Below are positions 19,960-37,824 of a stretch of 64,000 bases of DNA, in pieces. Below the pieces are notes generated by a model, which saw only the letters and a list, made by a program, of their open reading frames with translations, was not told the DNA's origin and did no database searches. How positions within the stretch are numbered: the first letter of the stretch is position 1; every line of letters begins with the position of its first letter. A program made the translations under genes and the position numbers. The DNA comes from Trypanosoma brucei (Eukaryota), in assembly GCA_000002445.1 (NCBI GenBank), contig CM000208.1, positions 1,504,001 to 1,568,000 of the forward strand. Reading direction: 5' to 3'.

Positions 19960-20100
19960 TGGCGCGGCAAACCATACATGAAGTAGTGGTAGTAGAATGG
20001 GGGGAAAAAGGGAGGCGAGGAAAGCGGAAAGAGAAAAAAGTGAAGAAAAGTGAGACAGTTGAAAAAAAAAAAAGCACAAAATGACACCACAGTAAACCCC
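19960..20100 (-). promoter_or_regulatory. Putative polypyrimidine tract / spliced-leader acceptor region for the clathrin heavy chain mRNA (minus-strand sense)
   Basis: The plus strand is strongly purine-rich here (gggggaaaaagggaggcgaggaaagcggaaagagaaaaaagtgaagaaaagtgagacagttgaaaaaaaaaaaagc). That means a long C/T tract on the coding strand ~800 nt upstream of the CHC ATG. Kinetoplastid trans-splicing uses a polyY tract followed by AG. The exact acceptor AG is not determinable by eye. Confidence 0.3.
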
Positions 20101-20343
20101 TCGAAGTAACTCAAAGCAGAAAAGAAAGGGTGGACAATGTATGAAACAACATAAGGGAGTCGAGAACTGTTAACCCATCCTCAAATGCCCTCCTTCACTT
20201 ATGTGTATCAAACACAAATTTCAATGTGCCTTCATTAAAAAAATTAAAGAGAATTAGTTAACCGCATCGTAAATTAATCACTTTTTATATGCATCTGCAA
20301 CACATATACAGGTACGTTAAAGTACATACACGGGTACATGTCC

Positions 20344-20421
20344 CCACACAGACACACACACAGGACACACAGACACACACACACACACATATATATGCAT
20401 ATATATATATATATATATATA
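20344..20421. repeat. Compound microsatellite (CA/GACA)n then (TA)n
   Basis: cacacagacacacacacaggacacacagacacacacacacacacatatatatgcatatatatatatatatatatata. Confidence 0.9.
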
Positions 20422-23284
20422 AGCATAAACAAAATGTGTGTGAATACATGTGCTAGTAAAGCAGCAGCGGATCCCACCACTGTGAGATGTGGCTCCACTT
20501 TCGGTCCCCACTGCTTCCTTCCGGTCCCTCCCGATTGAAAACTCGCCACCCCGCCGCACTCGACTACACGGCTCCCGCACCGCGCCGCACCGCACACACC
20601 GCCACGCCCCCGCTAACTTCTACGGAGTTCGTCAAAACACTCCGACATGCCGACACCTCCTGTAAAAAGTCGTCAAAGACAAAACCGTCCGCCCCTCTTG
20701 GAGGGACACAACAGCCAACCTCCACCGCAACGAAAACGCAATTAAATAAATAAGCATATAAATAATGTCAAGAACAAGGGAAGCCTCCCCTACGAGGCCA
20801 CGCGCCACCAAACACAAGACACAAAACACACAATACAGCCAACCCCACCGCGAGACTGAACGGTAACATGCACTAACTACAGAAATCCCTACACCACTAC
20901 GGTAAACTAAGCAATTCAAAACTGTACTCTAGAGCTTCATCGGCCGAACACACAGCCAAAAAAAAAAAAACGGATTTCCCCCTTTTTTTTTCCAAAACCA
21001 TAAACAAAAACTTGCGTGAATAAATCCAAAAAGGAACGCCACGCGTGTGTTCACCCCCTGCCCAACGTCCATTACATTTTCCTTGAGCAATACATCATGA
21101 GACTCAACATAGGCATAAACATATTGATGTAAATATGTTTACATGCGAATATATTATCCTACTTCTCTTATGCATCTACATTTCAATGAATATCGGTCCC
21201 ACCAACGTCACCTGCCCGAGTTCGACAGAGGAAGCGACTAGCAAACCTTTACACAATGGATGAAAAGAGAAAAACAAACAAAAACAATTATCCGGTAACG
21301 TACCCCATTTTGTCACCTACCCCTTCCCCCGCTATTCCACCAAACAATAATAATGATAATCGTAAATAACAGAATTACACATCAGTTGGTGTGTAACAGC
21401 AACTGTGCGCAATAAAACTACCGCAAATATCCATCCCCTCCCCTTTTCCCATCCCAACGGCCACCGCCCTTCCGTGAGTTATCAGACCGAATCAACGGCA
21501 ACGGCAGCGGGAAAATATGGAAAAGAGAGGGATGAAATGAAACGAACGAGCGAATGGTGTGGAAACCTTGGGGAACAGTCATAATGAGTAACGGAGAAAA
21601 ATTAGAAAAACGAAGTAAACGAAAAGACCGAACGGCTTCTGGGAGGTCAATAACGAAAAAAAAAACAGTTCAAGGAACCCGAGAATGGAAGAGGTAAAGG
21701 AAAAAAGAAAGGGAAAAGAAACAGGACAAAAAAGGAAAGAAAGAGAAAAAAAATGCGCCAACACACAAAGCGGCAGAAGCAAGCACGCGCAAAGATAAGG
21801 CAAGCATGCGGTGCTATGCTCGAACCGTACAAGCACTCGACATATGGACAGTTAAAGAAAATGGGCAGCGTTTTTGCGTTGTTTCGTTTTGTCTCTGCTT
21901 TGTATTGCGAAAAACAACAACAAAAATCTTACATTGCCCTTTTCGCTTTCGAGATTTTCTTTAGTTTGATATGTGCATATCTGAATCTCCTGTTTTCTGT
22001 GTTTTCGTTTCCTACTTTCATTTTTTTATTTGATATAGGTAGTTGGTGAGAACCCACTGGTGTTGCGCTTGCAGATCGTCCAAGTAAGGGTGAAACGAAC
22101 CCGCGCGCAAACACGAGTGGACATGCACAGAAAGAGGGAAGGAAAGAAAGAAGTGCTTGAATATGCAAAAAAGGAAGAAAAGAGCAGGCAAATTGAATAC
22201 CCATCCACATAAGAGGAAGTCTCCTCCACGGGGCATAAACTGCCTTTGCTCATCGATGTGCACACTTTTGAAGTATCGCATTCACCTCTTCAAGTGGTCC
22301 TGTTGCCTTCCAGCAGCGCACACCTCTTCTCATTGCCGTTACACCATTCTTGACTCTCCACTCCTTTGACTTTTCCATCCCTCCTCTCCGCTCTATTCAA
22401 CATAACGCCCTCACCTGTCCCTTTTATCACTCCCCTCCTCCCACCCACATCCAAATGTATTTACCGGCAATTTTCCTCCCACTCCTTCACACTCCATCTT
22501 TCCCCCTTATCCCATCCCCACACTTTTCCTGCTTGTCAATCGCTACGTGACCCGTATATCAAAGTAGGTACGCAAATTCTTCGAGTGGTCACCAGCGAAG
22601 AGAAAAACACGCAAAGACGTAAACTCATGATTGCTCCTCCGCTTCATCCCGTGATGGTACGCTCAGCCACAACCTGTACCGGCAACCACACGCAAACAGG
22701 CAAACGCGGAAAGTAACAAACACAAGAACTTACGCGTGCCATTTATGGGGTGATGAAATATGGAGGGTTGGAGACGTTTCAATATGTCTCCAAAGGAGGA
22801 GAGAAAAAGTAAAAAATAAATAACAAAAGAATGTGCCCAGTAATGGAGACAAAACCCTTAAGGGAACCACGAGCGAAGTGGGTAGACACCTCTCATTTTT
22901 CACGAAAACGATAGAATTACGGGACGCGACGTAGGGGAGTATTTTGATGTCCCCCACTCACCTTACGCCCCCCTCCAACGATCATGATATTGGAGAGCAT
23001 TATAACGTTATTTCCCCCCTTTTAATTTTTTTACTTTTTTTGCTTTTTTTTTGCTCTTTTTTTCCGTTTCGTCTCCTAATGTGGTTTATTTTACTATTTC
23101 CTCCCCCCACTTCCTTCTCTCTTTTCCATCCATTTTACACGTTTAGTGAAGCTCAGACGTTGTAGCACTACAGTAAAATCCTTACCTCCTAACAACTTAC
23201 AAAACTGGAATGCTGTAATGTGTCATCCACCATCTGTTTACACTACGACCACCACCCACAACAAAAACAAAATGAAAAGCACAC

Positions 23285-23640
23285 ATTATTGTTTCTTTAT
23301 TACGGATCCCACAGACTCCACAAATATATAAGTACAGTCAAATCGGAGAAGAGTAGTGAGATGGCACCGCTTTATGGCGAAAGTATAGGTAGGCGTCGCG
23401 TGTTCACATTGCGAGGACGGACGGTACATCGGCACCCCTCCTTTACTATCAGTTACCTTATTTCACAGGGCAGGCACGGCTGAGGTGACCGGGTTGGCCA
23501 CAGTTGTAGCATGCGCGTCCACCACCAGCAGCAGCACCGCCAGCAGCAGCGTCAGCAGGGGCATTCGGGCACTCACGGGCAATATGACCCTCCTGTTGAC
23601 AGTGGTAGCACGCACGGCCACCACCCATATTTCCGCCACG
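23285..23640. repeat. Segmental duplication, copy 1: UMSBP2 3' flank plus C-terminal coding (perfect identity about 23285..23500, then diverged)
   Basis: attattgtttctttattacggatcccacagactccacaaatatataagtacagtcaaatcgg…ggtgaccgggttggccacagttg is identical to 25149..25364, including the last 14 codons (…CYNCGQPGHLSRACPVK*). Confidence 0.9.
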
Positions 23641-24099
23641 CATGTTGGGGCACTCGCGGCTGAAATGACCGGGCTGACCGCAATTGTAACAGGCGCGTCC
23701 ACCACCCATCGGAGCGCCACCCATCGGGCCACCACGCATGTTGGGACACTCGCGGCTGAAATGACCGGGCTGACCGCAATTGTAACAGGCGCGTCCACCA
23801 CCCATCGGAGCGCCACCCATCGGACCACCACGCATGTTGGGACACTCGCGGCTGAAATGACCGGGTTGACCGCAATTGTAACAGGCGCGTCCACCACCCA
23901 TGGGTGCAGGTCCGCGGTTGCTGGGGCAATCACGACTTAAGTGGTCGGGTTGGCCACAGGTGTAGCAGGCACGGTCGCCCATTGCCCCTGGGGGAACGTT
24001 CGGACATTCCCTCGCAAAGTGGCCGGGCTGACCGCACCGGTGGCAGTTATTTCCGCCCTCAGCGCGGTGCCTTTTAGCAGTGGAAGCTTCGTCCGCCAT
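23458..24099 (-). CDS. UMSBP2: Universal minicircle sequence binding protein 2; CCHC zinc-knuckle protein with 7 CX2CX4HX4C fingers (214 aa from MADEASTAKRH)
   Basis: Seven CCHC knuckles (CHRCGQPGHFARECP, CYTCGQPDHLSRDCP, 3x CYNCGQPGHFSRECP, CYHCQQEGHIARECP, CYNCGQPGHLSRACP). The ORF-track start at 24234 adds 45 aa of UTR-like sequence. The internal ATG at 24099 gives the canonical N-terminus. Sits directly downstream of CHC, as expected for the UMSBP pair. Confidence 0.8.
   Translation of the reverse strand: MADEASTAKRHRAEGGNNCHRCGQPGHFARECPNVPPGAMGDRACYTCGQPDHLSRDCPSNRGPAPMGGGRACYNCGQPGHFSRECPNMRGGPMGGAPMGGGRACYNCGQPGHFSRECPNMRGGPMGGAPMGGGRACYNCGQPGHFSRECPNMRGGNMGGGRACYHCQQEGHIARECPNAPADAAAGGAAAGGGRACYNCGQPGHLSRACPVK
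23617..23904. repeat. Three near-perfect 96-bp tandem repeats inside the UMSBP2 CDS, each encoding one zinc knuckle plus a Gly/Met/Pro linker (RACYNCGQPGHFSRECPNMRGGPMGGAPMGGG)
   Basis: The direct nucleotide repeat catgttgggacactcgcggctgaaatgaccgggctgaccgcaattgtaacaggcgcgtccaccacccatcggagcgccacccatcgg(g/a)ccaccacg occurs 3x. It produces the alternative-frame ORFs 23463..23933(-), 23485..23940(+) and 23573..23929(-). Confidence 0.85.
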
Positions 24100-25148
24100 T
24101 GTTCTTGCAAAGTTGGCTGAAAGTGTTTTAAAAACTTGAGGAAAGCTAGTTCTCCAGAAGAATGTGGAGGTGAAAGGGGACAGAAACGGAATAATGTAGA
24201 ATGGTGCAGAAGCCACGCACGCACAAATTAGCAACGGTACAACGAAAGGATGATAAAGTGGATGCTCTCCTCGCCGCTTAAAGAATTGTCACGTTTTCTT
24301 CATGCACACAATTGAGGGGGTTCCTTGGGGAAAGGACAGAGGCACACTCCCCGACTACACTCTTACGCGGATGTCTTCCCATCGGTTGAAAATTACCCAC
24401 TCGAAGGACATCCCCTGACTTCCACTGGGTCGACGCACATCACATGGACCACGTGGTGGCTGTCGTCGGCATCGTCTGCATGCCCTTAGAGCCAGGCAAA
24501 TTAACGCGGCGTGAACTACAAACCCATACGATCCCCAAGTCAGCCATGAATGGTACCTTATGAATTTGCCCTCTTTCCTCTTCACTAACACAAAAAGAAA
24601 GGGGGAAAAGGGAAAAGGAACACTGTACTGCATCGGTAATACATGGAAGGATGAAAGTGCCCGCTAACGAGGAAATGCAACACTCGACACATCCGAAGTT
24701 ATTTCAGCATGGTCCTCAGTAATTACAAAGAGGTTGCCGTGATAAGAGAAATGGGAAACCCCCATTTCAAGAAACACAGGCCCCCATGTGTGAAAAAAAA
24801 AAATTCTTTTTTTCGTTCATGTTTGTAAATTTCCTTTCCTCTCTCCGTCTTCTTACCTTTCTTTTTATTTATACCGAGGATACCTCACCCTCGCTTTCTA
24901 CCACTACGTTCTTCGGCCCTCCAAGAAATTCTTACCTCCTGTCCCTCTTTCCTTTCATTAGTTATTTTTTCTTATACTTTCTCTTTCCTTCCCTTATTTA
25001 TTTCTTAAAACTCTTTGCCAACGCTAACAAAGTGATGTTACGATCTACCTTCCTCTCATTCCATTCTCGAGTACTCCTCTTGCGCCCATCCAAAACAAAA
25101 AAAATAAGTAAAAAAAGGAGAAAAAAGAGAGTCTCTTCACACTCCCAG

Positions 25149-25490
25149 ATTATTGTTTCTTTATTACGGATCCCACAGACTCCACAAATATATAAGTACA
25201 GTCAAATCGGAGAAGAGTAGTGAGATGGCACCGCTTTATGGCGAAAGTATAGGTAGGCGTCGCGTGTTCACATTGCGAGGACGGACGGTACATCGGCACC
25301 CCTCCTTTACTATCAGTTACCTTATTTCACAGGGCAGGCACGGCTGAGGTGACCGGGTTGGCCACAGTTGAAGCACGCGCGGCCGCCAGCAGCAGCGTCA
25401 GCAGGGGCATTCGGGCACTCACGGGCAATATGACCCTCCTGTTGACAGTGGTAGCACGCACGGCCACCACCCATATTTCCACCAGAGCGC
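25149..25490. repeat. Segmental duplication, copy 2: UMSBP1 3' flank plus C-terminal coding
   Basis: Same as above. Offset 1864 bp, which fits a tandem gene duplication unit. Confidence 0.9.
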
Positions 25491-25744
25491 GCATTGGGGC
25501 AGTCGCGGCTGATGTGACCGGGGCGACCGCAGTTGTAGCATGAGCGTCCACCGCCCATATTTCCGCCGGTGCGTGCATTGGGGCAGTCACGGCTGATGTG
25601 GTCAGGTTGACCGCAGTTGTAGCATGAGCGGCCACCGCCCATGTTTCCGCCAGAGCGCGCATTGGGGCACTCACGGCTCATGTGGCCAGGCTGACCGCAA
25701 TTATAGCATGTGCGGGCGTTTGACATCTGCATGTTATCAGCCAT
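25322..25744 (-). CDS. UMSBP1: Universal minicircle sequence binding protein 1; CCHC zinc-knuckle protein with 5 fingers (140 aa)
   Basis: MADNMQMSNARTCYNCGQPGHMSRECPN… Five CX2CX4HX4C knuckles. Tandem paralogue of the upstream gene. The last ~14 codons and ~200 bp of 3' flank are identical between the two copies. Confidence 0.8.
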   Translation of the reverse strand: MADNMQMSNARTCYNCGQPGHMSRECPNARSGGNMGGGRSCYNCGQPDHISRDCPNARTGGNMGGGRSCYNCGRPGHISRDCPNARSGGNMGGGRACYHCQQEGHIARECPNAPADAAAGGRACFNCGQPGHLSRACPVK

Positions 25745-27674: not shown

Positions 27675-29741
27675 TTAAACAGCGGCCGTGATGTCTTCGA
27701 TAATTCCCTCCTCGGCAGGAACCTCGCAGTTGCCGTCTACATGGTCGCCAGCAAAATCATCCGGCAACGGCGTGTCTCCTGTCTGGGGTCGAATAGAAAC
27801 ACGATCAAGCCACTCATCAGCAGCTGTTTTCAGCTCCTGCGAGTCAAAGCTCAGGGCATCCTTCACCTCCTCATACGTGAAGCCATCCAATTCCTCCAGT
27901 TCGCGTGGAGTGAGCTCACGGTATCTGGCGAGGCGACGGAGACGGGACACGCGCTGACGTCGGAAAAACGGCCAGTCACGCTCCACGAACTCCTTCCAAA
28001 CGGCGCCAGTGTGCCGGGTATAATATGGGGGAACTGTCACCTCACGCAGCGACCCTACAGGAAGTCCTGAGAGTGAGAATGGCCCAAATGAAATGCGGCC
28101 ACCTCGCTCTACCGTGCGACCCAGGTGCTGCATGAGGTGTGCCACAGGCATTACCTCGCCGCGCACCTTTACCTTCAGTGAGAAACGTGACTTCATCGCC
28201 GGATTCACAAAAAATTCCATGTTCTTGTACTGTTTGCCATTGATTGTAATGCCCTGAAAGTTTAGCTTGTGTGCCAGGACAGGGTCCACCGCTGGTCGTA
28301 CACGCAGTAGGTAAGTCTGCTGGATCATGCATTTCGGGTTTTCGAGGAAACGGGAAAGCTCCCCGTCGTTTGTAAGAAGCAGCAGCCCGTGGGCTCGCAT
28401 AGGAAGAGACCCAACGGGGACAAGGTGATCCATACCAAGTATCCGGGCATGCTTCGTAAATAATGCTCGACCAGCCACGTCATTCCTAGATACAATAACG
28501 TGTGCCGGCTTATGGTACATCCACAGCCTTGGTGGCGCAAACCGAAGGCGCCCACTGTGAGACGCCACATGAATATTATTCTCGGCTCGAACAAGACGGA
28601 ATGGATTCCTTTCCACCACATTATCGACACGTACCTGACCACTGGCAATTACCGCAAGCGCTTCGCGGCGGCTACAAAACCCCGCACGTGGTAAGCACCG
28701 AAGAAGATGAACGGAACCACCCGATGAAACCAACTTGCCCTCCCCTTGACTCGTAAGCCTCCGTGAAAAATCACTTACCGGATCATGGATTGAGCCGCCG
28801 GGTACTAAATCGGCTGAACTGTGAATAATTTTTCCTACGGCTGGGGACAGCACCTCTCCATCCTTCCACGGATCTGTTGAGGGCATCGCTATTTCTTCAC
28901 CGCTTGGTGAACCGTCATGAGATCCGTCAGGGAAAAGGTCTGCCAAAGTGTCAGCTTGGCCACCAAATGAACTTAGATCCTTAGCATCCAATACGTCGCA
29001 CCGAGGAACGTTTTTTTTCAGCCTTCTTTGCACCTCCGAATCTGAAAGCAGTTTTAGCCTAGAGGGAAGATACGTGTCGTTTCGATCTTCACGAAGTTTC
29101 TCTGCCTTAAGTTCCATCAACCTCTCCTTCAACATATCCGTAAGCTGCACAGGGGTATCACCGTACGCATTACCTTCCCCCTGTTCCGGCTCAATTGTGG
29201 GGTCGGCTGGGGAGACGTTACTTTCTTCTGCAACGGCAAAGCCGTGATCTTTGGGGTTCGCGCCGGACAACTGAAGCACATCGGGCGATAAAGCGTTTAG
29301 CCGTGTGCGGCTGTCAGAGGGTGAACCTCTCCACTGCAGACATTCTGATTGTCTTTTCACATCGCTACGTATGTCGAAACTCCCTTCATCGAAGAATGAT
29401 GGTGCAGCGCCTTTTTCCTCCCTTGGAGGGGCGTACCCGTCAACATTCCTGGTGCGTGTGATATCCTTCCACGTTTGCTTTCTCCGCTCATCTGCCGAGT
29501 AACGGGTGGTTGGGGCCTTCTTAATGTGTGACATGGCAACCGGGAAGTGTCGCTCCACATCCTGAAGTTTCTCCGCATCTGCTACGTCCACACTTCGCTG
29601 CAGGGCCGCTGCCGACGAAGATACACCTTTCTTCTTAGGAAACCAATGTTTCACCTTTCGCTCCTTACTACCAGTGCTGTTGACCGGTCGGCGCTGAACG
29701 CACGGCAGTACGACGAGCAGTGGCAGACTGACACGGCGCAT
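27675..29741 (-). CDS. RsuA/RluB-family pseudouridine synthase-like protein with S4 domain (688 aa); catalytic Asp missing; probable mitochondrial targeting N-terminus
   Basis: S4-like segment SRREALAVIASGQVRVDNVVERNPFRLV. PUS core WMYHKPAHVIVSRND…HLVPVGSLPMRAHGLLLLTNDGELSRFLENPKCMIQQTYLLRV matches RluB [28 protein letters not shown], but RLD is SLP here. N-terminus MRRVSLPLLVVLPCVQRRPV is Arg/Leu-rich. Long acidic/Ser-rich insertion between the N-terminus and the S4 domain. Confidence 0.7.
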   Translation of the reverse strand: MRRVSLPLLVVLPCVQRRPVNSTGSKERKVKHWFPKKKGVSSSAAALQRSVDVADAEKLQDVERHFPVAMSHIKKAPTTRYSADERRKQTWKDITRTRNVDGYAPPREEKGAAPSFFDEGSFDIRSDVKRQSECLQWRGSPSDSRTRLNALSPDVLQLSGANPKDHGFAVAEESNVSPADPTIEPEQGEGNAYGDTPVQLTDMLKERLMELKAEKLREDRNDTYLPSRLKLLSDSEVQRRLKKNVPRCDVLDAKDLSSFGGQADTLADLFPDGSHDGSPSGEEIAMPSTDPWKDGEVLSPAVGKIIHSSADLVPGGSIHDPVSDFSRRLTSQGEGKLVSSGGSVHLLRCLPRAGFCSRREALAVIASGQVRVDNVVERNPFRLVRAENNIHVASHSGRLRFAPPRLWMYHKPAHVIVSRNDVAGRALFTKHARILGMDHLVPVGSLPMRAHGLLLLTNDGELSRFLENPKCMIQQTYLLRVRPAVDPVLAHKLNFQGITINGKQYKNMEFFVNPAMKSRFSLKVKVRGEVMPVAHLMQHLGRTVERGGRISFGPFSLSGLPVGSLREVTVPPYYTRHTGAVWKEFVERDWPFFRRQRVSRLRRLARYRELTPRELEELDGFTYEEVKDALSFDSQELKTAADEWLDRVSIRPQTGDTPLPDDFAGDHVDGNCEVPAEEGIIEDITAAV

Positions 29742-30260
29742 TCACTACAACACCTATCAACCTCGCCTATAGGGCAGAAACCGCAATGCGAAGGAAGAAA
29801 GCGGTCATGCACCGATAAGGGGAAGCGCCACAAAGTCATTCTTACGAGGTGTTTTATTCATACTGCGCAGTACCACGGGAATAAAGCACACTACTGACGA
29901 TGACGTTTTGTCCCCCCCCCCTCCCCCCTCGGACACAACGCTCGGCACTGCGGAGCCACATCATTCGACGACGTGACAATGCAGAGCACGGCAGTATACA
30001 AACGAAGGGGTAAAGGAGCACAATAATCCAAGTGGGAGGGGCAAAAAGATGAAACGAAGAACCACTAACAATTATTGTTAATCATAAATAACACAAAGAT
30101 AAGCGCCGCCAGAAAATGAGTCGCAGCAGGCAACAAACAATGAAATGACCAACCGATATGCAGCTACCTTTCCCCCTGGATGCTGCATTACCCACGTAAG
30201 TTCCGTCTCTCAAACTAACCCCCTTCCTATCTTTCGCACATTCAGAGTTCGCCTGGGGAA

Positions 30261-31568
30261 CTAGTACATAATGGTGCGGCATAAGTGGTGTTTAACAGCG
30301 GAATCGACGTAATGTCTACCAATCCACCAGAGCATACAGTCAAGTGCGGGCGCATCCCAGACTCTCGACGTACTCTCCGGCCTCCATTCCCTACCAGTGG
30401 TGCAAGCACAGGAACTACGAAGGTAGTCCAACAGTAAGTCTGATGCTACAAGTGCAGCAACGCGGATGCAACACTCCTCCACACCCCCAGCCGCTAATAA
30501 AACACCAGTGTCCACTAATGACGCCAAGTATGAGTCATACTCCACTAAACCGAGAGAACGAAGGGCTTTCGGCAATTGGTAGTCGCAACACACAGTAAGA
30601 TGGTGCTTGTCCTTAAAGACACCATGAGCCCCACTAAAAGGAAAGGGAGCCTCGGTAACATTTGGCGTGTTAGCAGCCACAGTATCCATCGCCGACACCG
30701 CCTCCTCAATGGCCATAACGGTGAGCTGAGCTAATTTAAGCATTGGTATTACAATCTCGTCGCCCTGGTCTGAGTCCTTGCCACCGCCAACTTCACCCCT
30801 TAGCACACAGACATCGTAGTAGCGGGGGTGCAGCTCAACCAACATTTCGACAAACCCCAAGTGCGGGAATATGGGGTGGTACAAATAACCCTCGCTGAGG
30901 CACAGCATTTTGAAAAAGGAGGTGTCCTTTTCCACTAGACTGCGGGAAAGCGACAAGAGCAACTCAACGCGTTCCCTGGCAGCGGGCATCCACATGGATG
31001 TGTGTCCATCCTCCCTGTAGCCAAGGAAGCAGCGTTCCAGCGCCTCCATAGCGTCTTCAGTGGTTGCGAACTGTTGCAGGAATTGTGGACAATGCCAATT
31101 CAAATGGTAAACCTCCACTGCCCTGCACAGTAGATGAACCATCGCCATAGAACCACGAATCAGCCGTTTTCCCCCGTAACTTACCGAGCCGCTTGTTTCT
31201 GCGCTGCCTTCGGGTAACTCGGCGTAGAAGCCGCAGATATTCTCTACGCGAGATCCCGTAGGGGTGGCGTCGGGGGGATCCTCCCCCCAGTGCCTGAAGT
31301 CTATTGCAACCAACATGCCCAGATAGTTCACCGTCTCCTCCACACTGTTGCGGAGGCTCGGCGGCACGGCGGTGAACCACGGCGATGAACCTGTGCTTCC
31401 ATTCTCATGCGACTTGGCGAAAAAATCTGAAAGGTAGCTTTGCAACAGCTTCTGGAACTGTGGTCGGGAAGCGCACTCCTCAACGTCCACCAGGCGTGCA
31501 TAACGTAGTTTCTTGGAAGGGAAACCACTAGCTATAAAGTTTCGGACGGACGTCCTTACCGGCTGCAT
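30261..31568 (-). CDS. DUF2419 / QNG1-like queuosine salvage protein homologue (about 435 aa from MQPVRTSV; ORF track extends to 31787)
   Basis: EETVNYLGMLVAIDFRHWGED resembles human QNG1 (C9orf64) ETVNWIFLVDTLNFSFWSD. LTVCCDYQLPKALRSLGLVEYDSYL resembles [25 protein letters not shown]. Spacing from the N-terminus (~76 aa) matches the human protein. The upstream 73 codons of the track ORF look like UTR read-through, so the start is uncertain. Confidence 0.5.
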   Translation of the reverse strand: MQPVRTSVRNFIASGFPSKKLRYARLVDVEECASRPQFQKLLQSYLSDFFAKSHENGSTGSSPWFTAVPPSLRNSVEETVNYLGMLVAIDFRHWGEDPPDATPTGSRVENICGFYAELPEGSAETSGSVSYGGKRLIRGSMAMVHLLCRAVEVYHLNWHCPQFLQQFATTEDAMEALERCFLGYREDGHTSMWMPAARERVELLLSLSRSLVEKDTSFFKMLCLSEGYLYHPIFPHLGFVEMLVELHPRYYDVCVLRGEVGGGKDSDQGDEIVIPMLKLAQLTVMAIEEAVSAMDTVAANTPNVTEAPFPFSGAHGVFKDKHHLTVCCDYQLPKALRSLGLVEYDSYLASLVDTGVLLAAGGVEECCIRVAALVASDLLLDYLRSSCACTTGREWRPESTSRVWDAPALDCMLWWIGRHYVDSAVKHHLCRTIMY

Positions 31569-32307
31569 TTGCCACCTTAGCGCCCACGCAGATGTAGCAG
31601 CAGCTACAGCCTCCAGAGCAGAACAGTATGGCGGAGAAAAGTTAATGCGAAAAAAGGCGGTAGACTGCGACAGGGGCAAAAAGAGCTTTGTATATCGGAA
31701 GAGGAGGATACAGACAAATACAACAGGGAAATAGAAAAAGGCGGCACAACATGCCCTTTTGTACATGTAATGAAACGCGCGAGTCACCCGAGTTTAAGTA
31801 CATCTCCATAACTATTGTGAAGGGTCTCGAGTCAGCCACTAGAAAGAATCAGAAAGCGATTGTTGTTGAAGACATCCACACGAGGGCTTGAGTGTAGAGG
31901 GTAGGAACACCGGCGGTACGATAATGTGATAGATCCCGTCAAACCCACCGTGCACACATGCACAATAGTGCAGTGAGCGGTCTGCGGCGATAAAGATCAC
32001 CATCCTGAACATCCGCTGTCCACCAGTAACATGACCCCTCGCGCTAAAATCTGAAAATATACAAAACAGTACATGTAGAAGCACCCACCACATACTCCGG
32101 ATTTATACAAACAGCCCGAAAAAGAACCATTAAGAAGGCACAAAGCACCAGGAGGTGAAAAGGCACAAACACCGTTCTTCGCGGGTGGAACCTGATAAAA
32201 TAACCCGAGCATAGAAACAACACCGACTACACAAGCGTGGAAGTGAAACACACTCGAGAAAAGCAAAAGCGACATGTCGAAAAGACGACCGGCCACTGTA
32301 CCACATG

Positions 32308-34455
32308 CTATACCCTACCAGATTCACGCAGTAGCCGAAGGAATGTTGTCGACATGCCACGGCCAACGGGGGCGCTAGAAGGCTTTTTTACAGACGAAAA
32401 GGCGGTGCCCCGCTCCCTTGCAATCATGCCCTCGATCGTGTGGATACCTGCTTTATGCGTTTCTTCGATACACTTACGGCGCCGGTACTCCTGAATCAAC
32501 AGACGCTCAACCTCGTAACGAATCTTTTCATGGTCCACATACGGATCCGCATTCTGCTGCTGTTTGTCCGACTCATCGTCATAAAAACTAACACTCATCA
32601 AGTTAGTCTTCAAGGACCGCTGTTTCCCCCCCGTGCCAACTAGGAGGTCATGCAAGGGGTGATTGGAATCCTCACAGATGCCAGTGTGAAAGGGTCTCCT
32701 GTGGTAACTTCTGGAGCTTTCGGGTCTAGCGAGGGAGAGCCATGCGAAGGAGTGTGATGGGGGCCGCGACAGACACTCTTCAGTCCATGCCACGTATAGG
32801 AGTTTTGACCACTCTTCTCCCATAGCATCTGAGGTGACACTCAGGTGTGAAAGCGGTTTCAGATCCTTTCCCTTCTTAACTTTTCGATAAACTGGGTAAA
32901 GATAATGCAAATTGTCTAACGTGACGTTGGGACCCAAAATAAACGCCTTGGTTTGCTCTCTAGAATTCTGCTTCCTGCGCGAATTCATGAGCACGCGGAA
33001 CTCCTTGAATGTTGAAAGTGAATGAAGAGGTTCCCGCAAAGATAGAGGGCCCTCTCTAACGAAACGCACCTCCACTTTTTCCAATGCTTTCTCTGTGTCT
33101 TGAATACGTGCCCTACACTGAACAGGGGCAGATCCACTAGCTAAATCTGGCCTGGGATCCAACCCAGATTGGCCGGCGCCCATAGATTCGGGGAACGTCA
33201 GGTGGCCCTTCTCCAGGAGAATGGCTGTAACAAAGCAAGCATTTGCACGTCTTCGATATGGTCCTTCAGAAGGGTTTTCGGTATCGGCTAAATTCACCCA
33301 TGCGTAATTCTTCTCCTCCTTTCCCTTGCCACATTCGTCCATGTAGCCAGCCATGGTTAAATTGGTCATACTCTTTAAAATACTTGAGCAGTGGGAAGAG
33401 CGCGTCCACAAGGACAACGAATGCGAGAGCACTTGCCTCTCTTTGGTTCCATCAGTGGGAGCCTCCTCCTGCAGAGTCGCAGGTCCACACCATGATTTCT
33501 CATCAGTGGTGTTGTTAGTGAAAAGATTTTCAGATATGTGAAGCGTTTTCGCTGAAAGGCACGTCTCCAGTACCAACGGATCATTGTAACACAACTGGTG
33601 GCAATTGATCACAAAAAGTAAGCGTCGCCTGACAAGTTCTCGCCTCTCAATACTCTCTTCGTCCATTAAAAGCCGAATCAACTTCCTCTCGCGGGATGTT
33701 TGCATCGGGTTAGTGCGTGTGTTGCACCGTATCCACGCTCTCTCAATAATGCTAACTGCGTGCTTAAACACTTCTTGCTGCTTCCTCCATTTCAGACGCA
33801 AACTTTCAAGTGCGCGAAGGAACGTCATCACCATCACTGCATTGTGCTCTGCAACCCTACCCTCTTCCTTCCCTTTCAGGTCAAGAGACAATGCGTACGC
33901 GGTGCAAGCTTCGACAATAATGCGTTTAGCAATGCGTGTGCGCAACTTCCATAGACGGTGCTCCCAGGTATACCGCTTCTCAATCCGAGAAGCCAATGCG
34001 TCAGGAGAATCTACAAGTCTTCGCAGCAGCGTCACGCGGAACCAACGCTGGAGACGACTCACTGACACCTCCATTGCCACACGATGCAGGCGCGAGTTCG
34101 ATGTGTTTCCACCACTCTTTGATGTTGTCCCACGGCTTCCCGTAGGGTACGTAAGCCGGTCTGCGGTAAAGCAGGAAGTGGGTCTCCTTGATCCTGTACC
34201 CCACACGGAGCTGCGACGCGTTGAAGTATCACTACTAAGCGTCCTCCCCTGCGGACCAGAACGGCTAGTTGCGCTTCCCTGCCGACCGCGCATACTGCCG
34301 CGTTGCTGACTCATCGACCCGGTAGAGATTGTCCGCTCTTTAGATGTAGTCTTCCTGCGCGACTCCTGTGGTAAGCGTTGCGAACTCGTCCCACGCTGCT
34401 GCACGGGCGGTAGCCGTAGTTTTTTTGGTGACCCACCCCCCTTACCCCGATTCAT
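32308..34455 (-). CDS. Hypothetical protein (715 aa) with a basic Ser/Arg/Gly-rich N-terminus and IQ-like motifs
   Basis: Long ORF on the unit strand. Has LQRWFRVTLLRR and IIERAWIRCNTR (IQ-like [IL]QxxxRxxxxR). No other domain recognised. Confidence 0.45.
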   Translation of the reverse strand: MNRGKGGGSPKKLRLPPVQQRGTSSQRLPQESRRKTTSKERTISTGSMSQQRGSMRGRQGSATSRSGPQGRTLSSDTSTRRSSVWGTGSRRPTSCFTADRLTYPTGSRGTTSKSGGNTSNSRLHRVAMEVSVSRLQRWFRVTLLRRLVDSPDALASRIEKRYTWEHRLWKLRTRIAKRIIVEACTAYALSLDLKGKEEGRVAEHNAVMVMTFLRALESLRLKWRKQQEVFKHAVSIIERAWIRCNTRTNPMQTSRERKLIRLLMDEESIERRELVRRRLLFVINCHQLCYNDPLVLETCLSAKTLHISENLFTNNTTDEKSWCGPATLQEEAPTDGTKERQVLSHSLSLWTRSSHCSSILKSMTNLTMAGYMDECGKGKEEKNYAWVNLADTENPSEGPYRRRANACFVTAILLEKGHLTFPESMGAGQSGLDPRPDLASGSAPVQCRARIQDTEKALEKVEVRFVREGPLSLREPLHSLSTFKEFRVLMNSRRKQNSREQTKAFILGPNVTLDNLHYLYPVYRKVKKGKDLKPLSHLSVTSDAMGEEWSKLLYVAWTEECLSRPPSHSFAWLSLARPESSRSYHRRPFHTGICEDSNHPLHDLLVGTGGKQRSLKTNLMSVSFYDDESDKQQQNADPYVDHEKIRYEVERLLIQEYRRRKCIEETHKAGIHTIEGMIARERGTAFSSVKKPSSAPVGRGMSTTFLRLLRESGRV

Positions 34456-34909: not shown

Positions 34910-35650
34910 CTACAACTCGAACTTCTCGTCACCGTAACTCCCCATGGAATACAAGGGTGCGGCAAATGGCTCGTAGTCTGAGTAACACTGTTTGAAGATG
35001 CGCTCTACGGCGCGCTCCGAGAAACCACGGCATAATGGGTTTTTTTCCACAGCTGTAATAGCACGACGACGAACACACTGTATACCACCACTCAGGAGAT
35101 CAAACCGCCCGCGACGCATCTCCTCCCCGACAAAACAGTCACCACTCAGCCTGGCAGCGCGTACTTCACTGCATGCCTGGTGCATACAATCCGAGGCTTC
35201 AATAATGCCTCGCGCGTCGTCAAAGGCATGGATCAGCTCGTGTCTGAGATTCCGCTCAACTGCAGTGCAAGTTTTCGCCCCGGGTACAATGCTGTCGTTC
35301 TCAGTTGCCTTATCCAGCACAACATGTTGCTCGATAAGTAAAATGTCCCCCTTTTCGCAATCCCTGCGTGCCCGACGCCACATGTACCCTGCCGCTGAGG
35401 TGCCATCTGCCATGGTGTTGCTGCCACCAGCCCAAGATGCATTGGCAACACCGCCGCTGTCGAGTTGGGGAACGCACTTTATTCGCTCACGACGGAATGG
35501 GGTGTTGCTAATTTCTTCTATGCTTTTGATCAGATACTGCACGGTATTAACATTTGCAAGGACCTCATCTACAGCAGCCTCACATATTTCGTGGATGGAG
35601 GGCTGCTTTCTGCTTAAGTTCCCTACACCATCAGGTTCCACAGAGGCCAT
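34910..35650 (-). CDS. ATP23: Atp23-like mitochondrial inner-membrane metalloprotease (peptidase M76, HExxH), 247 aa from MASVEPDG
   Basis: HELIHAFDDARG matches the M76/Atp23 zinc-binding motif HE(M/L)IHA(F/Y)D. Conserved Cys pattern downstream (…DCMHQACSEVRAARLSGDCF…C…C). The track ORF start at 35824 adds 58 codons of pyrimidine-tract-like sequence. The internal ATG at 35650 is preferred. Confidence 0.6.
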   Translation of the reverse strand: MASVEPDGVGNLSRKQPSIHEICEAAVDEVLANVNTVQYLIKSIEEISNTPFRRERIKCVPQLDSGGVANASWAGGSNTMADGTSAAGYMWRRARRDCEKGDILLIEQHVVLDKATENDSIVPGAKTCTAVERNLRHELIHAFDDARGIIEASDCMHQACSEVRAARLSGDCFVGEEMRRGRFDLLSGGIQCVRRRAITAVEKNPLCRGFSERAVERIFKQCYSDYEPFAAPLYSMGSYGDEKFEL

Positions 35651-36230
35651 CAACAGCGACACCTGCAGTGTCCCGGTGAAGGTGACAACAACCGCAAAGA
35701 AACGGTTGGAAGAAGTGACAAAAACTAAAAAAGAAAAAAGTGAACTGTGACGAGGAGACAATACATACACAAACGCATACAAAATAAGCTTGTAAGCAGA
35801 ACAGAGGATGCTTTGCGACGCCAAACTGTGCCACCTCTGTACACAGTTTCCGCTTCTTTGTACGCGAGTAAATGAGCGCCGACAGCAACAACATTGTTAC
35901 AAAAAGTAACGACAACAACAACAGTAATGATAGTAAGAGTCCTATCTACCCGTAATTCCTCAAAGGTAAATATACTCGTCGCATTTGAAATACAAACACG
36001 AGTGAGCATATATAAATATATTCTTCTTTTTATATTTATGTGTGAGCGTGTAGGCGCGTATAAAAGGGACAGGAAAGGAAGTTGACCTTCGTCCTTACTT
36101 CTAAGCAGTGGAAAGAACACCGGTCACGTTAAATATATATAAATGCAACAGTTACTAAACCTCTTCTTTCTCCCTTTTTTCATTTACCTTTTTCTCATTT
36201 TTTTTTGATGTATTACATCACTCCTTGAAC

Positions 36231-36254
36231 ATATATATATATATATATATATAT
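36231..36254. repeat. (AT)n microsatellite
   Basis: atatatatatatatatatatatat in the spacer between the Atp23-like gene and the next hypothetical. Confidence 0.9.
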
Positions 36255-36915
36255 GAAGATGTGTATATATTTCTCAAAAAAGAAAAAAAGGAGAATCATA
36301 AGTAAGGGGTGTGTAAACTCCACTACCTCATAGAGGCTTCATGAAAGCGCCGCGCGCGCATCGCACATTGTTTTCTTCATAAATCTTCCTCTTCTTCTAA
36401 CGATTAGTCCCTCAACTACCTTCCCTTCTTCACGTTTTACATCATCATCATCATCATCATTCTCTGTTCTCCCTTCTTGTCTTCTTTGCCCACCTTCAAG
36501 TCTCCAACGTGATGACAATCATCAAAATAAATAAATAGAGAAGTCAAAACATATAACATTTTCTTCTCCCTTAACCCGAATTCCACTTGCCTCTTATTTT
36601 ATTATAGGAACCCTTATAAAGACAGACAAACACACTCATTTATTCACTCAATTCTAACGCATAACTCTCACATGTATATATGCGTGTGAACTAACTATTC
36701 GTCACCACTTAAAAACTAAACGCCTAAAAAAAAAAAAGATGATGCTACTACCCAAAATTGCTAAAAAGGGCACCACAAGTCATTTTCCTAATAACTATGG
36801 CACCACTATAATACGAATAAAAAAAATAGGGAGCGGAGGGAGGGGGTCATGACTGTGTGTGCTGACATTTCTAGCATGTTGTCACACGATGACATACACC
36901 CACACACGCATACAT

Positions 36916-36970
36916 CTATATATATATATATATATATATATGTGGGTGGGTGTGTGTGTGGGTGTGTGTA
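36916..36970. repeat. Compound (TA)n(TG)n microsatellite
   Basis: ctatatatatatatatatatatatatatgtgggtgggtgtgtgtgtgggtgtgtgtatg. Confidence 0.9.
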
Positions 36971-37824
36971 TGTTTCTTTACTTTCACAAGAAGCGTTACA
37001 TCCCACAACATCACGAAAACTCAAAACTAATAAATCTCTCCTTGCGGTTCAACACAATATCACACAAATGCAGCGAAATAATTCTGCGATGCATCATTGT
37101 CGGTAAGGGTGCAGCACACAAAATGTTCATATGCGTCTCCTCCTCCTCATTCCCCCATTAGGTGAAGTAAATGGAATAAACGTGCAGCAGCGTTCAGGCA
37201 AAGAAAATAGTGAAGAGAAAAGGAGAGGGGAAAAAAAAGGAATAGCAGCGACTCGCTAATCCATCCACACGCCCGTGCCCCTTTTAGGTCTTAATCTCAT
37301 GGAACCTACACTTCTCACTCGTGTATGCACATGTGCGTATGGCAATTCTTTTTTTTTCTTTTTACCTCGTGTTCAAATATGTTATTCTATTGAACTTTGA
37401 GACTGCTACGAGCACCAACTCACGAAAGGAGAAATACTGCAATAATCCTCACCCAGTTATCCACCTTTTGTTCATGTTTTATTTCTTCACTACACATATT
37501 CCATTCAAACCACTCATTTATTCTTAAATTTATTGTTCTTCCTTTACCCAATGAGTTACGCTTACACCCTCGTGTGCCCAACTACTTCACCGCATACAAA
37601 ACAAACAAACACGAAGGAATGTACTAAAAATATCCAATCTGCTACAATAAAAAAAGAAAGAAACAGTGGCGACCGTGTACTTATATGATACCACCACACC
37701 TGAAAATGGTTAAGGTAAACAAAAAAATGATCTTTCACTATTCTTTGGAAATGCAAACAAAACTTATGATTGTCTCTGATGATGATGAAGAAGAAGAGAA
37801 ACAGAGGGGGAAATATGCGCGACA

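What the first reader, a model, noticed from the sequence alone, without database searches (positions are those of the whole stretch)
27675..29741. Pseudouridine-synthase-fold protein with catalytic Asp replaced (SLP instead of RLD) and a mitochondrial-type presequence
The RsuA/RluB motif II normally reads GRLDxx(S/T)xGLLLLTNDG, with the Asp as the essential nucleophile. Here the aligned segment is HLVPVGSLPMRAHGLLLLTNDG (about 28362..28415), so the enzyme is predicted to be catalytically dead. The S4 RNA-binding domain and the rest of the fold are kept. Together with an Arg/Leu-rich N-terminus and a long acidic insertion, this fits an rRNA-binding scaffold or assembly factor rather than an active PUS. 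Kinetoplastid mitoribosome assembly intermediates are reported to contain catalytically inactive RNA-modification enzyme homologues, and this would fit that theme. I cannot confirm its identity with any named factor from sequence alone.
Basis: partly seen in the sequence, partly recalled or inferred. Interest (0 to 1): 0.6.

Follow-up and report, generated by a model that had tools for sequence, protein, structure and literature searches.

The report
Dead RluB-type pseudouridine synthase, mitochondrial
This Trypanosoma brucei gene (Tb927.10.6090) encodes a mitochondrial protein that keeps the RNA-binding fold of the bacterial rRNA enzyme RluB but has lost the catalytic aspartate in every kinetoplastid examined, so it most likely holds mitochondrial ribosomal RNA rather than modifying it; this kind of repurposing is already known in these parasites.

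Summary
ORF 27675..29741 (-) encodes the 688-aa T. brucei protein Tb927.10.6090 (Q38AZ7), mis-annotated as "tRNA pseudouridine synthase A". It is an S4 + RsuA/RluB-family fold (RluB E 5e-16; Foldseek 2e-17; core pLDDT >90).

Motif II reads G-S-L-P where bacteria have G-R-L-D. Pro replaces the catalytic Asp in 40/40 kinetoplastid-type orthologues, against Asp in 47/47 and 117/117 bacterial-type homologues. Basal lineages (Papus, Perkinsela) also lack Asp (Pro or His). Short Pharyngomonas and Polysphondylium relatives keep GRLD.

The dead domain is the most conserved part of the protein (79% identity). It is flanked by clade-specific extensions, including an invariant C-terminal W..F.ERDWP motif.

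Published proteomics shows ATOM40-dependent mitochondrial import. A reference table lists the protein among those co-purifying with tagged mitoribosomes.

It is neither mt-LAF3 (RluA type) nor mt-LAF4 (TruD type), and no solved structure contains it.

Best reading: a Kinetoplastea-wide pseudoenzyme derived from mitochondrial RluB that acts as an rRNA-binding scaffold or assembly factor at a stage not yet visualised. This is a new member of a known kind. Its function has not been tested.

The parts
27675..29741 (-). Complete ORF of Tb927.10.6090 (688 aa plus stop codon at 27675-27677)
   Evidence: ORF; 100% identical to T. b. gambiense XP_011777921; the same 90% cluster holds TREU927 XP_822851/Q38AZ7. 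Q38AZ7 = Tb927.10.6090.
29622..29741 (-). Residues 1-40: basic, Arg/Leu/Val-rich N-terminus, presumed mitochondrial presequence
   Evidence: 11 basic and 1 acidic residue. TargetP-positive in the Peikert reference table. ATOM40-dependent abundance. Sequence poorly conserved, as expected for a presequence (21% identity). The cleavage site was not determined.
29451..29585 (-). Residues 53-97: predicted helices in the N-terminal extension (moderate confidence)
   Evidence: AF2 helices 53-59, 62-74 and 80-97, pLDDT 70-81. The conserved DVE..FP.A..H.K motif is visible in alignment A1.
29052..29171 (-). Residues 191-230: conserved helix GDTPVQLTDMLKERLMELKAEKLREDRNDTYLPSRL, kinetoplastid-specific
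   Evidence: 72% mean identity across 39 orthologues. AF2 helix 198-222, pLDDT 78-83. No Pfam or PDB match.
28722..29051 (-).
   Evidence: 22% mean identity, entropy 2.68. pLDDT mostly below 55. Residues 255-340 have net charge -9.
28542..28721 (-). Residues 341-400: S4-like RNA-binding domain
   Evidence: Pfam S4, residues 352-385, E 1.9e-4. pLDDT 92-98. Invariant R358 and G368, near-invariant S357 and R359. 74% identity within the clade.
28032..28541 (-). Residues 401-570: RsuA/RluB-type pseudouridine-synthase fold without the nucleophile
   Evidence: Pfam PF00849. TIGR00093, residues 410-569, E 7e-19. RluB alignment. Foldseek: 4lgt E 1.7e-17, target TM 0.75; 3dh3 target TM 0.80. 79% identity within the clade.
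28362..28427 (-). Residues 439-460: remodelled motif II, HLVPVGSLPMRAHGLLLLTNDG
   Evidence: Translation. Clade-invariant H439 (bacteria Arg 46/47), S445 (Arg 47/47), P447 (Asp 47/47), H451 (Thr/Glu).
28401..28403 (-). Codon of Pro447, the position of the catalytic Asp
28311..28313 (-). Codon of Tyr477, the retained active-site tyrosine (aligned with the Tyr of RluB 'EREYAVRV')
   Evidence: Invariant in 87/87 sequences. Alignment. In the RluB-RNA complex an active-site tyrosine bonds covalently to 5-fluorouridine (PMC12710931).
27792..28031 (-). Residues 571-650: structured, clade-specific C-terminal extension (two long helices)
   Evidence: AF2 helices 583-607 and 612-649, pLDDT 79-93. 63% identity. 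Present in all divergent clade members and absent from the bacterial, Pharyngomonas and Polysphondylium homologues checked. No PDB match.
27969..27983 (-). Residues 587-591: E-R-D-W-P core of the invariant W..F.ERDWP.FR motif
   Evidence: The regex match fails in P0269; one search shows W..FIDRD there.
27678..27791 (-). Residues 651-688: acidic, poorly conserved C-terminal tail
   Evidence: Residues 650-688 net charge -9. 34% identity. pLDDT 47-58.
29745..29800 (-). Polypyrimidine-rich stretch with AG dinucleotides just upstream of the ATG; candidate trans-splice acceptor region (inferred only)
   Evidence: Sequence read (tttcttccttcgcattgcggtttctgccctatAG...). No transcript data were examined.

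Best explanation
Tb927.10.6090 is a nuclear-encoded, mitochondrially imported pseudoenzyme descended from an RluB-type 23S rRNA pseudouridine synthase, probably the ancestral mitochondrial one.

It keeps the S4 domain, the PUS fold and the base-stacking tyrosine. It has lost the catalytic Asp (now Pro) and the motif-II Arg (now Ser), so it cannot isomerise uridine.

It most likely binds a stem-loop of mitochondrial rRNA, by descent most plausibly the 12S LSU rRNA. It would act as a non-catalytic RNA chaperone, placeholder or scaffold during mitoribosome biogenesis. The kinetoplastid-specific N- and C-terminal extensions would serve as docking surfaces for other proteins.

Shown here: the fold, the loss of the catalytic residues, purifying selection, and the clade-wide distribution. 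Taken from the literature: mitochondrial import and the listing among mitoribosome co-purifying proteins. Inferred: RNA binding, the rRNA target and the assembly role.
For: Family and fold:
- RluB is the best solved relative by sequence (E 5e-16; profile E 6e-25).
- RluB is also the best relative by structure (Foldseek E 1.7e-17), with a high-confidence model of the core.
- NCBIfam ranks RluB above RsuA, RluF and RluE.

Inactivation:
- Asp->Pro and Arg->Ser in 40/40 orthologues, against 0/47 bacterial homologues and 0/117 generic hits with a recognisable motif.
- Basal kinetoplastids also lack Asp: Papus has Pro, Perkinsela has His.
- The catalytic Asp is described as highly or strictly conserved in PUS families (PMC12710931), and PUS enzymes use it as the nucleophile (PMC8394491).

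The protein is functional, not decaying:
- The dead domain is the most conserved region (79% identity, entropy 0.74 against 1.31 in the bacterial enzymes).
- The replacement residues are themselves invariant.
- The gene is retained in the reduced endosymbiont Perkinsela.

Mitochondrial location: ATOM40-knockdown SILAC ratios of 0.24, 0.48 and 0.54, no effect of PEX14 knockdown, and a positive TargetP call (PMC5436138).

Ribosome link:
- The protein is flagged in the 'Mitochondrial Ribosomes (Zikova 2008)' column of the Peikert reference set.
- E. coli RluB itself sits on pre-50S intermediates (PDB 9cl9) and accumulates on stalled pre-50S particles (PMC11912913).

Precedent: kinetoplastid pre-mtLSU particles already contain the inactive PUS homologue mt-LAF4 and a non-catalytically required mt-LAF3.

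Ancestry: the named nearest Asp-containing hits are mostly Alphaproteobacteria. Short eukaryotic relatives keep GRLD and have basic N-termini.
Against: No solved kinetoplastid mitoribosome or assembly-intermediate structure contains this protein, by sequence or by fold. The cryo-EM papers describe only mt-LAF3 and mt-LAF4 as PUS-fold factors.

The mitoribosome co-purification rests on one column of a secondary reference table, which I parsed from my own transcription. I could not read the primary paper.

No RNA-binding, knock-down or localisation data for this gene were found. The RNA target is inferred purely from ancestry.

Loss of the motif-II Arg may mean that the ancestral base-flipping mode of binding is also lost. 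That Arg inserts to flip the base in RluA (Hoang 2006, as cited).

I could not run a positive control showing that the PDB copy returns T. brucei mitoribosome chains (searches found none among the other window genes).
Confidence: 0.55

Rival explanations
1. The protein is a dead-enzyme RNA binder, but it works on other mitochondrial RNAs (pre-edited or edited mRNAs, guide RNAs, U-tailed transcripts) in processing, editing or stability, rather than in ribosome assembly.
For: It is absent from all solved pre-ribosomal particles. mt-LAF3, another PUS-fold protein, also affects mRNA and edited transcript levels and co-purifies with editing proteins. [quoted passage not shown] The remodelled motif II (H439, S445, P447, H451) suggests altered specificity.
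Against: In the Peikert reference table the protein is flagged under mitochondrial ribosomes, not under the RNA-editing or MRB1 columns. The RsuA superfamily is described as rRNA-specific. No editing-complex paper names this gene.
Confidence: 0.2
2. It is a non-catalytic partner that activates or targets an active mitochondrial PUS (for example Tb927.3.2130 or mt-LAF3), by analogy with the suggestion that inactive human RPUSD3 is required for the activities of RPUSD4 and/or TRUB2.
For: RPUSD3 lacks the catalytic Asp, yet its depletion lowers mitochondrial RNA pseudouridylation (discussion). T. brucei has a predicted active mitochondrial RluA-type paralogue, Tb927.3.2130. The conserved helical extensions here could mediate protein-protein contacts.
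Against: There is no interaction evidence. The possible partners belong to a different PUS family. This reading is compatible with, and not clearly separable from, a scaffold role on the ribosome.
Confidence: 0.1
3. It is still an active pseudouridine synthase that uses a relocated acidic residue, for example Asp589 of the invariant ERDWP motif in the C-terminal extension folding back into the pocket.
For: Tyr477 and Arg549 of the active site are retained. An invariant acidic E-R-D motif appears in the same clade that lost G-R-L-D. The Perkinsela-like and P0137 lineages carry an E-D pair two residues after the lost Asp.
Against: The sources read here describe the catalytic Asp as highly or strictly conserved and as the nucleophile, and none mentions an active PUS that lacks it. 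The motif-II Arg is lost as well. The residue at the Asp position varies (Pro, His, Ser) among divergent members, which fits relaxed chemistry at that site. I could not measure the distance from the ERDWP motif to the pocket because the model coordinates are not exposed.
Confidence: 0.04
4. It is a decaying relic with no function.
For: Loss of the catalytic residues.
Against: The gene is an intact ORF in every orthologue recovered here, including the reduced Perkinsela. The dead domain is 79% identical on average and more constrained than in the bacterial enzymes. The protein is detected by mass spectrometry with up to 8 peptides.
Confidence: 0.01

Closest known systems
E. coli RluB (23S rRNA pseudouridine-2605 synthase; PDB 4LAB, 4LGT, 9CL9), RsuA superfamily
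   Same: N-terminal S4 domain followed by the PseudoU_synth_2 catalytic fold. The alignment is colinear over residues 344-570. The Tyr, the motif-III Arg, the KP..G motif and the TNDG motif are retained. RluB acts on, and is found bound to, pre-50S assembly intermediates.
   Different: Catalytic Asp->Pro and motif-II Arg->Ser, plus Arg439->His. About 340 extra N-terminal residues and about 120 extra C-terminal residues. Mitochondrial and eukaryotic. Scores far below the RluB equivalog cut-off (58 against 290 bits).
mt-LAF4 of kinetoplastid pre-mtLSU particles (TruD-type inactive pseudouridine synthase homologue)
   Same: A kinetoplastid mitochondrial PUS-fold protein whose active-site residues are not conserved. 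It is interpreted as a placeholder or scaffold in mitoribosome assembly (PMC7703582 and PMC7957421).
   Different: A different PUS family (TruD against RsuA/RluB) and a different gene. mt-LAF4 has been visualised by cryo-EM, whereas this protein has not.
mt-LAF3 / PUS5 (Tb927.9.3350; RluA/RluD-type)
   Same: A mitochondrial PUS-fold protein that binds 12S rRNA. Catalysis is dispensable for its essential function (the D211A mutant is viable). It also lacks the motif Arg (HNLD).
   Different: It keeps the catalytic Asp, belongs to the RluA family, is structurally characterised (PDB 6YXY), and is a different gene.
Human RPUSD3
   Same: A mitochondrial PUS homologue that naturally lacks the catalytic Asp (RASG in place of HRLD). 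It is needed for mitochondrial RNA pseudouridylation, and a role supporting active partner enzymes has been suggested.
   Different: RluA family, no S4-RluB ancestry, animal lineage; an independent loss.
Plant plastid RsuA-family proteins (rice TCD3, Arabidopsis SVR1) and Chlamydomonas MAA2
   Same: Organellar eukaryotic PUS homologues tied to rRNA processing and ribosome assembly (SVR1, TCD3), or recruited to a psi-independent RNA role (MAA2) (PMC8394491).
   Different: SVR1 meets the sequence criteria of an active enzyme, and TCD3 is suggested to be one. These are plastid proteins, not mitochondrial. They were not tested here for the kinetoplastid extensions.

Membership tests
RsuA/RluB superfamily of pseudouridine synthases (homology and fold) | PseudoU_synth_2 catalytic fold | tested here: met
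   PF00849 at 29.6 bits, above the gathering cut-off of 26.8. TIGR00093 E 7e-19, though below its curated cut-off (68 against 109 bits). Foldseek to RluB, RluF, RsuA and RluE at E 1e-10 to 1e-17, target TM 0.61-0.80.
RsuA/RluB superfamily of pseudouridine synthases (homology and fold) | N-terminal S4-like RNA-binding domain linked to the core | tested here: met
   Pfam S4 E 1.9e-4, slightly below the gathering cut-off. pLDDT 92-98. The profile also hits uS4 chains. The domain architecture is described in PMC12710931.
RsuA/RluB superfamily (as an active enzyme) | Motif II G-R-L-D with the catalytic Asp nucleophile | tested here: not met
   The motif reads G-S-L-P. Pro in 40/40 orthologues against Asp in 47/47 and 117/117 homologues.
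RsuA/RluB superfamily (as an active enzyme) | Conserved active-site Tyr and motif-III Arg | tested here: met
   Y477 in 87/87 sequences. R549 in 38/40 clade members and 47/47 bacterial homologues.
RsuA/RluB superfamily (as an active enzyme) | Uridine-to-pseudouridine isomerase activity | not testable with these tools
   Needs an in vitro assay or psi-seq after depletion.
RluB equivalog (NCBIfam NF007976) | Score at or above the curated cut-off of 290 bits | tested here: not met
   58.4 bits. RluB is the best-scoring equivalog, but the protein is not a member by the curated threshold.
TruA ('tRNA pseudouridine synthase A', the database annotation) | TruA-type PseudoU_synth_1 domain | tested here: not met
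   No TruA-family hit in Pfam at E<=1 or in NCBIfam at E<=1; only RsuA-family models match. The annotation is a misnomer.
Named kinetoplastid mitoribosome assembly factors (mt-LAF / mt-SAF) | Identity with a factor modelled in a solved pre-mtLSU or pre-mtSSU structure | tested here: not met
   No PDB chain matches by sequence or by fold within the top hits. mt-LAF3 is Tb927.9.3350 and mt-LAF4 is TruD-type. No positive control was obtained for retrieval of T. brucei chains.
Named kinetoplastid mitoribosome assembly factors (mt-LAF / mt-SAF) | Physical association with mitoribosomal particles | tested here: inconclusive
   Flagged in the 'Mitochondrial Ribosomes (Zikova 2008)' column of Peikert Suppl. 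Data 2. The primary paper is not held.
Mitochondrial matrix proteins of T. brucei | Import-dependent abundance and an N-terminal targeting signal | tested here: met
   Literature data: ATOM40 RNAi ratios of 0.24 (p 0.003), 0.48 (p 1.4e-4) and 0.54; PEX14 RNAi 0.79, not significant; TargetP positive, MitoFates negative. Sequence: residues 1-40 have net charge +10. The sub-mitochondrial compartment was not determined.
Pseudoenzymes (conserved catalytically dead homologues) | Loss of essential catalytic residues together with purifying selection on the fold | tested here: met

The most novel reading that the evidence does not exclude
The pocket was rebuilt rather than merely broken. R439H, R445S and D447P are fixed in all 40 aligned orthologues, the base-stacking Tyr477 is kept throughout, and H451 is added in most lineages. 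On this reading the protein is a non-converting 'reader' that clamps a flipped uridine. One candidate target is the 3' oligo(U) tails of mitochondrial rRNAs and guide RNAs (their existence is from my own knowledge, not from a tool result). The invariant ERDWP extension would couple that recognition to a kinetoplastid-specific partner. That would make it a new kind of RNA-recognition module derived from a pseudouridine synthase, not just another assembly placeholder.
Probability: 0.1. Interest if true: 0.75.

Novelty: new member of a known kind. Interest (0 to 1): 0.45.

Why it matters
Kinetoplastid mitoribosomes are assembled by an unusually large set of factors, several of which are enzymes that have lost their chemistry. 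This protein adds a third PUS family (RsuA/RluB) to that set.

It is conserved across Kinetoplastea, including Perkinsela, and has no counterpart in humans according to the reviews read here. It is missing from every cryo-EM intermediate solved so far, so it may mark an earlier or more transient assembly state, or a different RNA pathway.

The result also corrects a database misnomer ("tRNA pseudouridine synthase A"). It fills a gap in a published survey of T. brucei PUS proteins that reported no RsuA-type member. It also qualifies review statements that RsuA homologues are absent from eukaryotes.

The contrast between Asp-containing short relatives in other eukaryotes and Asp-less extended proteins in kinetoplastids gives a dated example of an enzyme turning into a scaffold.

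Tried and rejected
- Equating the protein with mt-LAF3 or mt-LAF4: rejected. They are different genes in different PUS families.
- Looking for the protein in solved structures: none found with the full sequence, the C-extension, the N-extension, a clade profile or Foldseek.
- Positive control for T. brucei chains in the PDB copy, using three other window ORFs: no hits, so no control was obtained.
- Literature by gene ID: Tb927.10.6090, Q38AZ7, XP_822851 and Tb10.70.0780 gave no main-text mention anywhere. My guessed Leishmania IDs also gave nothing.
- Supplements of the complexome paper, the p22 preprint, the diplonemid mitoribosome paper and the Tobiasson paper are not held.
- The McDermott supplements that are held and the TrypTag supplements do not list the gene.
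- Zikova 2008, Alsford 2011 and Pyrih 2023 are not held.
- The afdb50 fold library was unavailable.
- kDNA-loss RNAi screen: the gene appears once (logFC 2.89, FDR 0.004). By its position in the file it is probably in the larger list, which the authors say is dominated by false positives. I give it no weight.
- 'Acidic insertion within the fold': rejected. It is a linker in the N-terminal extension.
- A His-based neo-active site (H439 + H451): weakened, because H451 is not conserved in Papus or Perkinsela.
- My first regular expression for motif II was wrong; it was corrected.
Full report
**What is there**

The minus strand of 27675..29741 carries a 688-codon ORF. It is 100% identical to T. 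brucei gambiense XP_011777921. The same 90% cluster holds the T. b. brucei TREU927 protein XP_822851/Q38AZ7, encoded on a 4.05-Mb contig that matches the size of chromosome 10.

The neighbouring genes on the same strand are:
- two tandem CCHC zinc-knuckle genes, UMSBP-like;
- a proteasome beta subunit;
- on the other side, a Q_salvage-domain gene.

The supplements of Peikert et al. [quoted passage not shown] That confirms the gene ID I had inferred from synteny.

**Checking the observation**

Pfam finds PseudoU_synth_2 over residues 406-490, above its gathering score, and an S4 domain over residues 352-385, just below its gathering score. NCBIfam ranks the RsuA-family model TIGR00093 first, then the equivalogs RluB > RsuA > RluF > RluE, all far below their curated cut-offs.

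Against all PDB sequences the best hits are E. coli RluB (4LAB/4LGT and 9CL9, E about 5e-16), in a colinear alignment over residues 344-570. In that alignment VGSLPMRAHGLLLLTNDG lies on [18 protein letters not shown].

An AlphaFold2 model built on 87 sequences gives pLDDT 82-98 for residues 341-600. Foldseek returns the RluB-RNA and RluF-RNA complexes, RsuA and RluE as top hits (E 1e-17 to 1e-10; target TM-score up to 0.80). The fold, the S4 domain and the D-to-P substitution are therefore all real.

The one descriptive error concerns the "acidic insertion". It is not inside the fold. It is the poorly conserved linker (residues 231-340) of a 340-residue N-terminal extension.

**Is the substitution meaningful?**

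- In an 87-sequence alignment, all 40 kinetoplastid-type orthologues have Pro at the Asp position. These include Trypanosoma, Leishmania, Leptomonas, Phytomonas, Angomonas, Bodo and environmental relatives.
- None of those 40 has Arg at the motif-II Arg position: 37 have Ser, and one each has Thr, Asn or His.
- All 47 bacterial sequences have Arg and Asp.

An exhaustive HMMER scan of 1.84 billion representatives gave 25 proteins at E<1e-30, after which generic RluB-type hits begin at about 1e-28. All 117 generic hits with a recognisable motif are G-R-L-D.

Every member of the close clade lacks Asp. The clade is also defined by a C-terminal W..F(I/V)ERDWP.FR motif. The residue at the Asp position is:
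- Pro in most members, including the free-living prokinetoplastid Papus ankaliazontas;
- His in Perkinsela and its relatives;
- Ser in one environmental sequence.

Short relatives of 285-324 aa in the heterolobosean Pharyngomonas kirbyi and the dictyostelid Polysphondylium violaceum keep G-R-L-D and lack the extension. The named nearest Asp-containing hits are mostly Alphaproteobacteria.

The simplest history is this. A mitochondrial RluB was inherited from the endosymbiont. It lost catalysis and gained extensions at or before the base of Kinetoplastea. I found no named diplonemid or euglenid member, so the exact timing is open.

**Dead but constrained**

The PUS domain is the most conserved part of the protein: 79% mean identity to the T. 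brucei sequence across 39 orthologues, and never below 62%. Its column entropy is 0.74, against 1.31 for the same columns in the bacterial enzymes.

Other regions:

| Region | Residues | Mean identity |
|---|---|---|
| S4 domain | 341-400 | 74% |
| N-terminal helix | 191-230 | 72% |
| C-terminal extension | 571-650 | 63% |

The family-invariant residues K411, D421, R425, Y477, N458-D459-G460 and R549 are all retained.

The motif II neighbourhood did not drift. It was replaced by a new invariant set: H439 (bacteria Arg 46/47), S445, P447 and H451. H451 is not shared by Papus or Perkinsela.

This pattern is typical of a pseudoenzyme that still uses its substrate-binding architecture.

**Where it acts**

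In the importome study the protein drops to 0.24-fold in gradient-purified mitochondria after ATOM40 knock-down (p 0.003, 8 peptides). It drops to 0.48-fold in organelle fractions (p 1.4e-4) and to 0.54-fold in whole cells. It is unaffected by PEX14 knock-down, and it is listed among the new mitochondrial candidates.

In the same paper's mitochondrial reference set, the row for this gene carries marks that parse as "Mitochondrial Ribosomes (Zikova et al. 2008)" and "TargetP". Control rows such as MRPS15 parse correctly. I could not read the primary paper, so I treat ribosome co-purification as likely but second-hand.

**Relation to known factors**

Cryo-EM studies of kinetoplastid pre-mtLSU particles describe two PUS-fold factors:
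- mt-LAF3/RPUSD4 is RluA/RluD-type, keeps its Asp, and is encoded by Tb927.9.3350. Its catalysis is dispensable.
- mt-LAF4 is TruD-type and inactive.

Neither is this protein. No PDB chain matches it, or its extensions, by sequence, profile or fold.

[quoted passage not shown] A 2025 review says no RsuA homologue has been identified in eukaryotes. Plant plastid RsuA-type proteins (TCD3, SVR1) are in fact described, so the gap is one of annotation rather than principle. No paper in the library mentions this gene in its main text.

**Mechanism proposed**

E. coli RluB flips out U2605 of a 23S rRNA stem-loop. It has been seen on a pre-50S intermediate (9CL9) and it accumulates on stalled pre-50S particles. 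Association with LSU assembly is therefore ancestral for this family.

I propose that the kinetoplastid protein keeps stem-loop recognition through the S4 domain and the dead PUS cleft. It would act as a chaperone or placeholder on mitochondrial rRNA, most plausibly 12S. Its conserved helical extensions would dock onto lineage-specific proteins. This would happen at a step earlier or more transient than the intermediates solved so far.

My confidence in each step:
- That the protein is catalytically dead: about 0.9.
- That it is mitochondrial: about 0.9.
- That its job is ribosome biogenesis: about 0.55.

The rivals, in order, are a role on other mitochondrial RNAs (0.2), a non-catalytic partner of an active PUS (0.1), retained activity through a relocated acidic residue such as D589 of ERDWP (0.04), and a functionless relic (0.01).

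**Verdict**

It is a new member of a known kind: catalytically inactive RNA-modification homologues repurposed in kinetoplastid mitochondria. Three features add interest: a third PUS family, clade-wide antiquity, and absence from all solved intermediates. The function is still untested.

Noticed in passing
window 23458-24234 (-) and 25322-25744 (-): Two tandem genes encoding CCHC zinc-knuckle proteins with internal near-identical repeats (RACYNCGQPGHFSRECPN...). They are consistent with the universal minicircle sequence-binding proteins UMSBP2 and UMSBP1. Several overlapping spurious ORFs arise from the repeats.
   Followed up: partly
window 30261-31787 (-); compare the GCA_041443025.1 contig: The upstream neighbour has a Q_salvage (queuosine salvage, PF10343) match over only its C-terminal ~120 residues. 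The gene order Q_salvage, PUS-like, proteasome subunit is conserved in a deep-branching genome (GCA_041443025.1) that encodes orthologue P0043.
   Followed up: partly
window 27675-29741 (-): The database product name 'tRNA pseudouridine synthase A' has been propagated to the named orthologues in many species, but it is a misnomer. There is no TruA-family match; the family is RsuA/RluB.
   Followed up: yes
proteins P0140 (Pharyngomonas kirbyi), P0308 (Polysphondylium violaceum), P0291 (EukProt transcriptome): Short eukaryotic RluB-type proteins with intact G-R-L-D and basic N-termini exist. This runs against review statements that eukaryotes have no RsuA-superfamily homologues. They may be active mitochondrial RluB orthologues.
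   Followed up: partly
proteins P0268 (Perkinsela), P0269, P0133; locus L002 4001-5596: The Perkinsela-like lineage has R-P-L-H-[YF]-E-D-R-G in motif II. The motif Gly is also lost, His sits at the Asp position, and an acidic E-D pair follows two residues later. P0133 lies on a 212-kb contig where the called genes in the fetched stretch are densely packed on one strand, which is kinetoplastid-like.
   Followed up: partly
Tb927.10.6090 in PMC13191291 Supplementary Table ST3: The gene scores logFC 2.89, FDR 0.004 in a FACS-based genome-wide RNAi screen for kDNA loss. It appears only once, so it is in one comparison only, and the authors say the single-comparison lists are dominated by false positives.
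   Followed up: partly
window 34910-35824 (-), 32308-34455 (-), 41797-51537 (-): A Peptidase_M76 (ATP23-like) gene; a 715-aa ORF with no Pfam or PDB match; and a very long 3246-aa ORF. None was examined further.
   Followed up: no
window 12001-14000, 36001-38000, 20001-22000: Two low-GC stretches (0.38 against about 0.50 elsewhere) and a stretch with strong AT skew (0.30). They are presumably intergenic or UTR regions between genes of the polycistron.
   Followed up: no
window ~29911-29930 (-): A G-rich run (gaggggggagggggggggga) in the intergenic region upstream of the gene, followed by polypyrimidine tracts and AG dinucleotides near the ATG.
   Followed up: no
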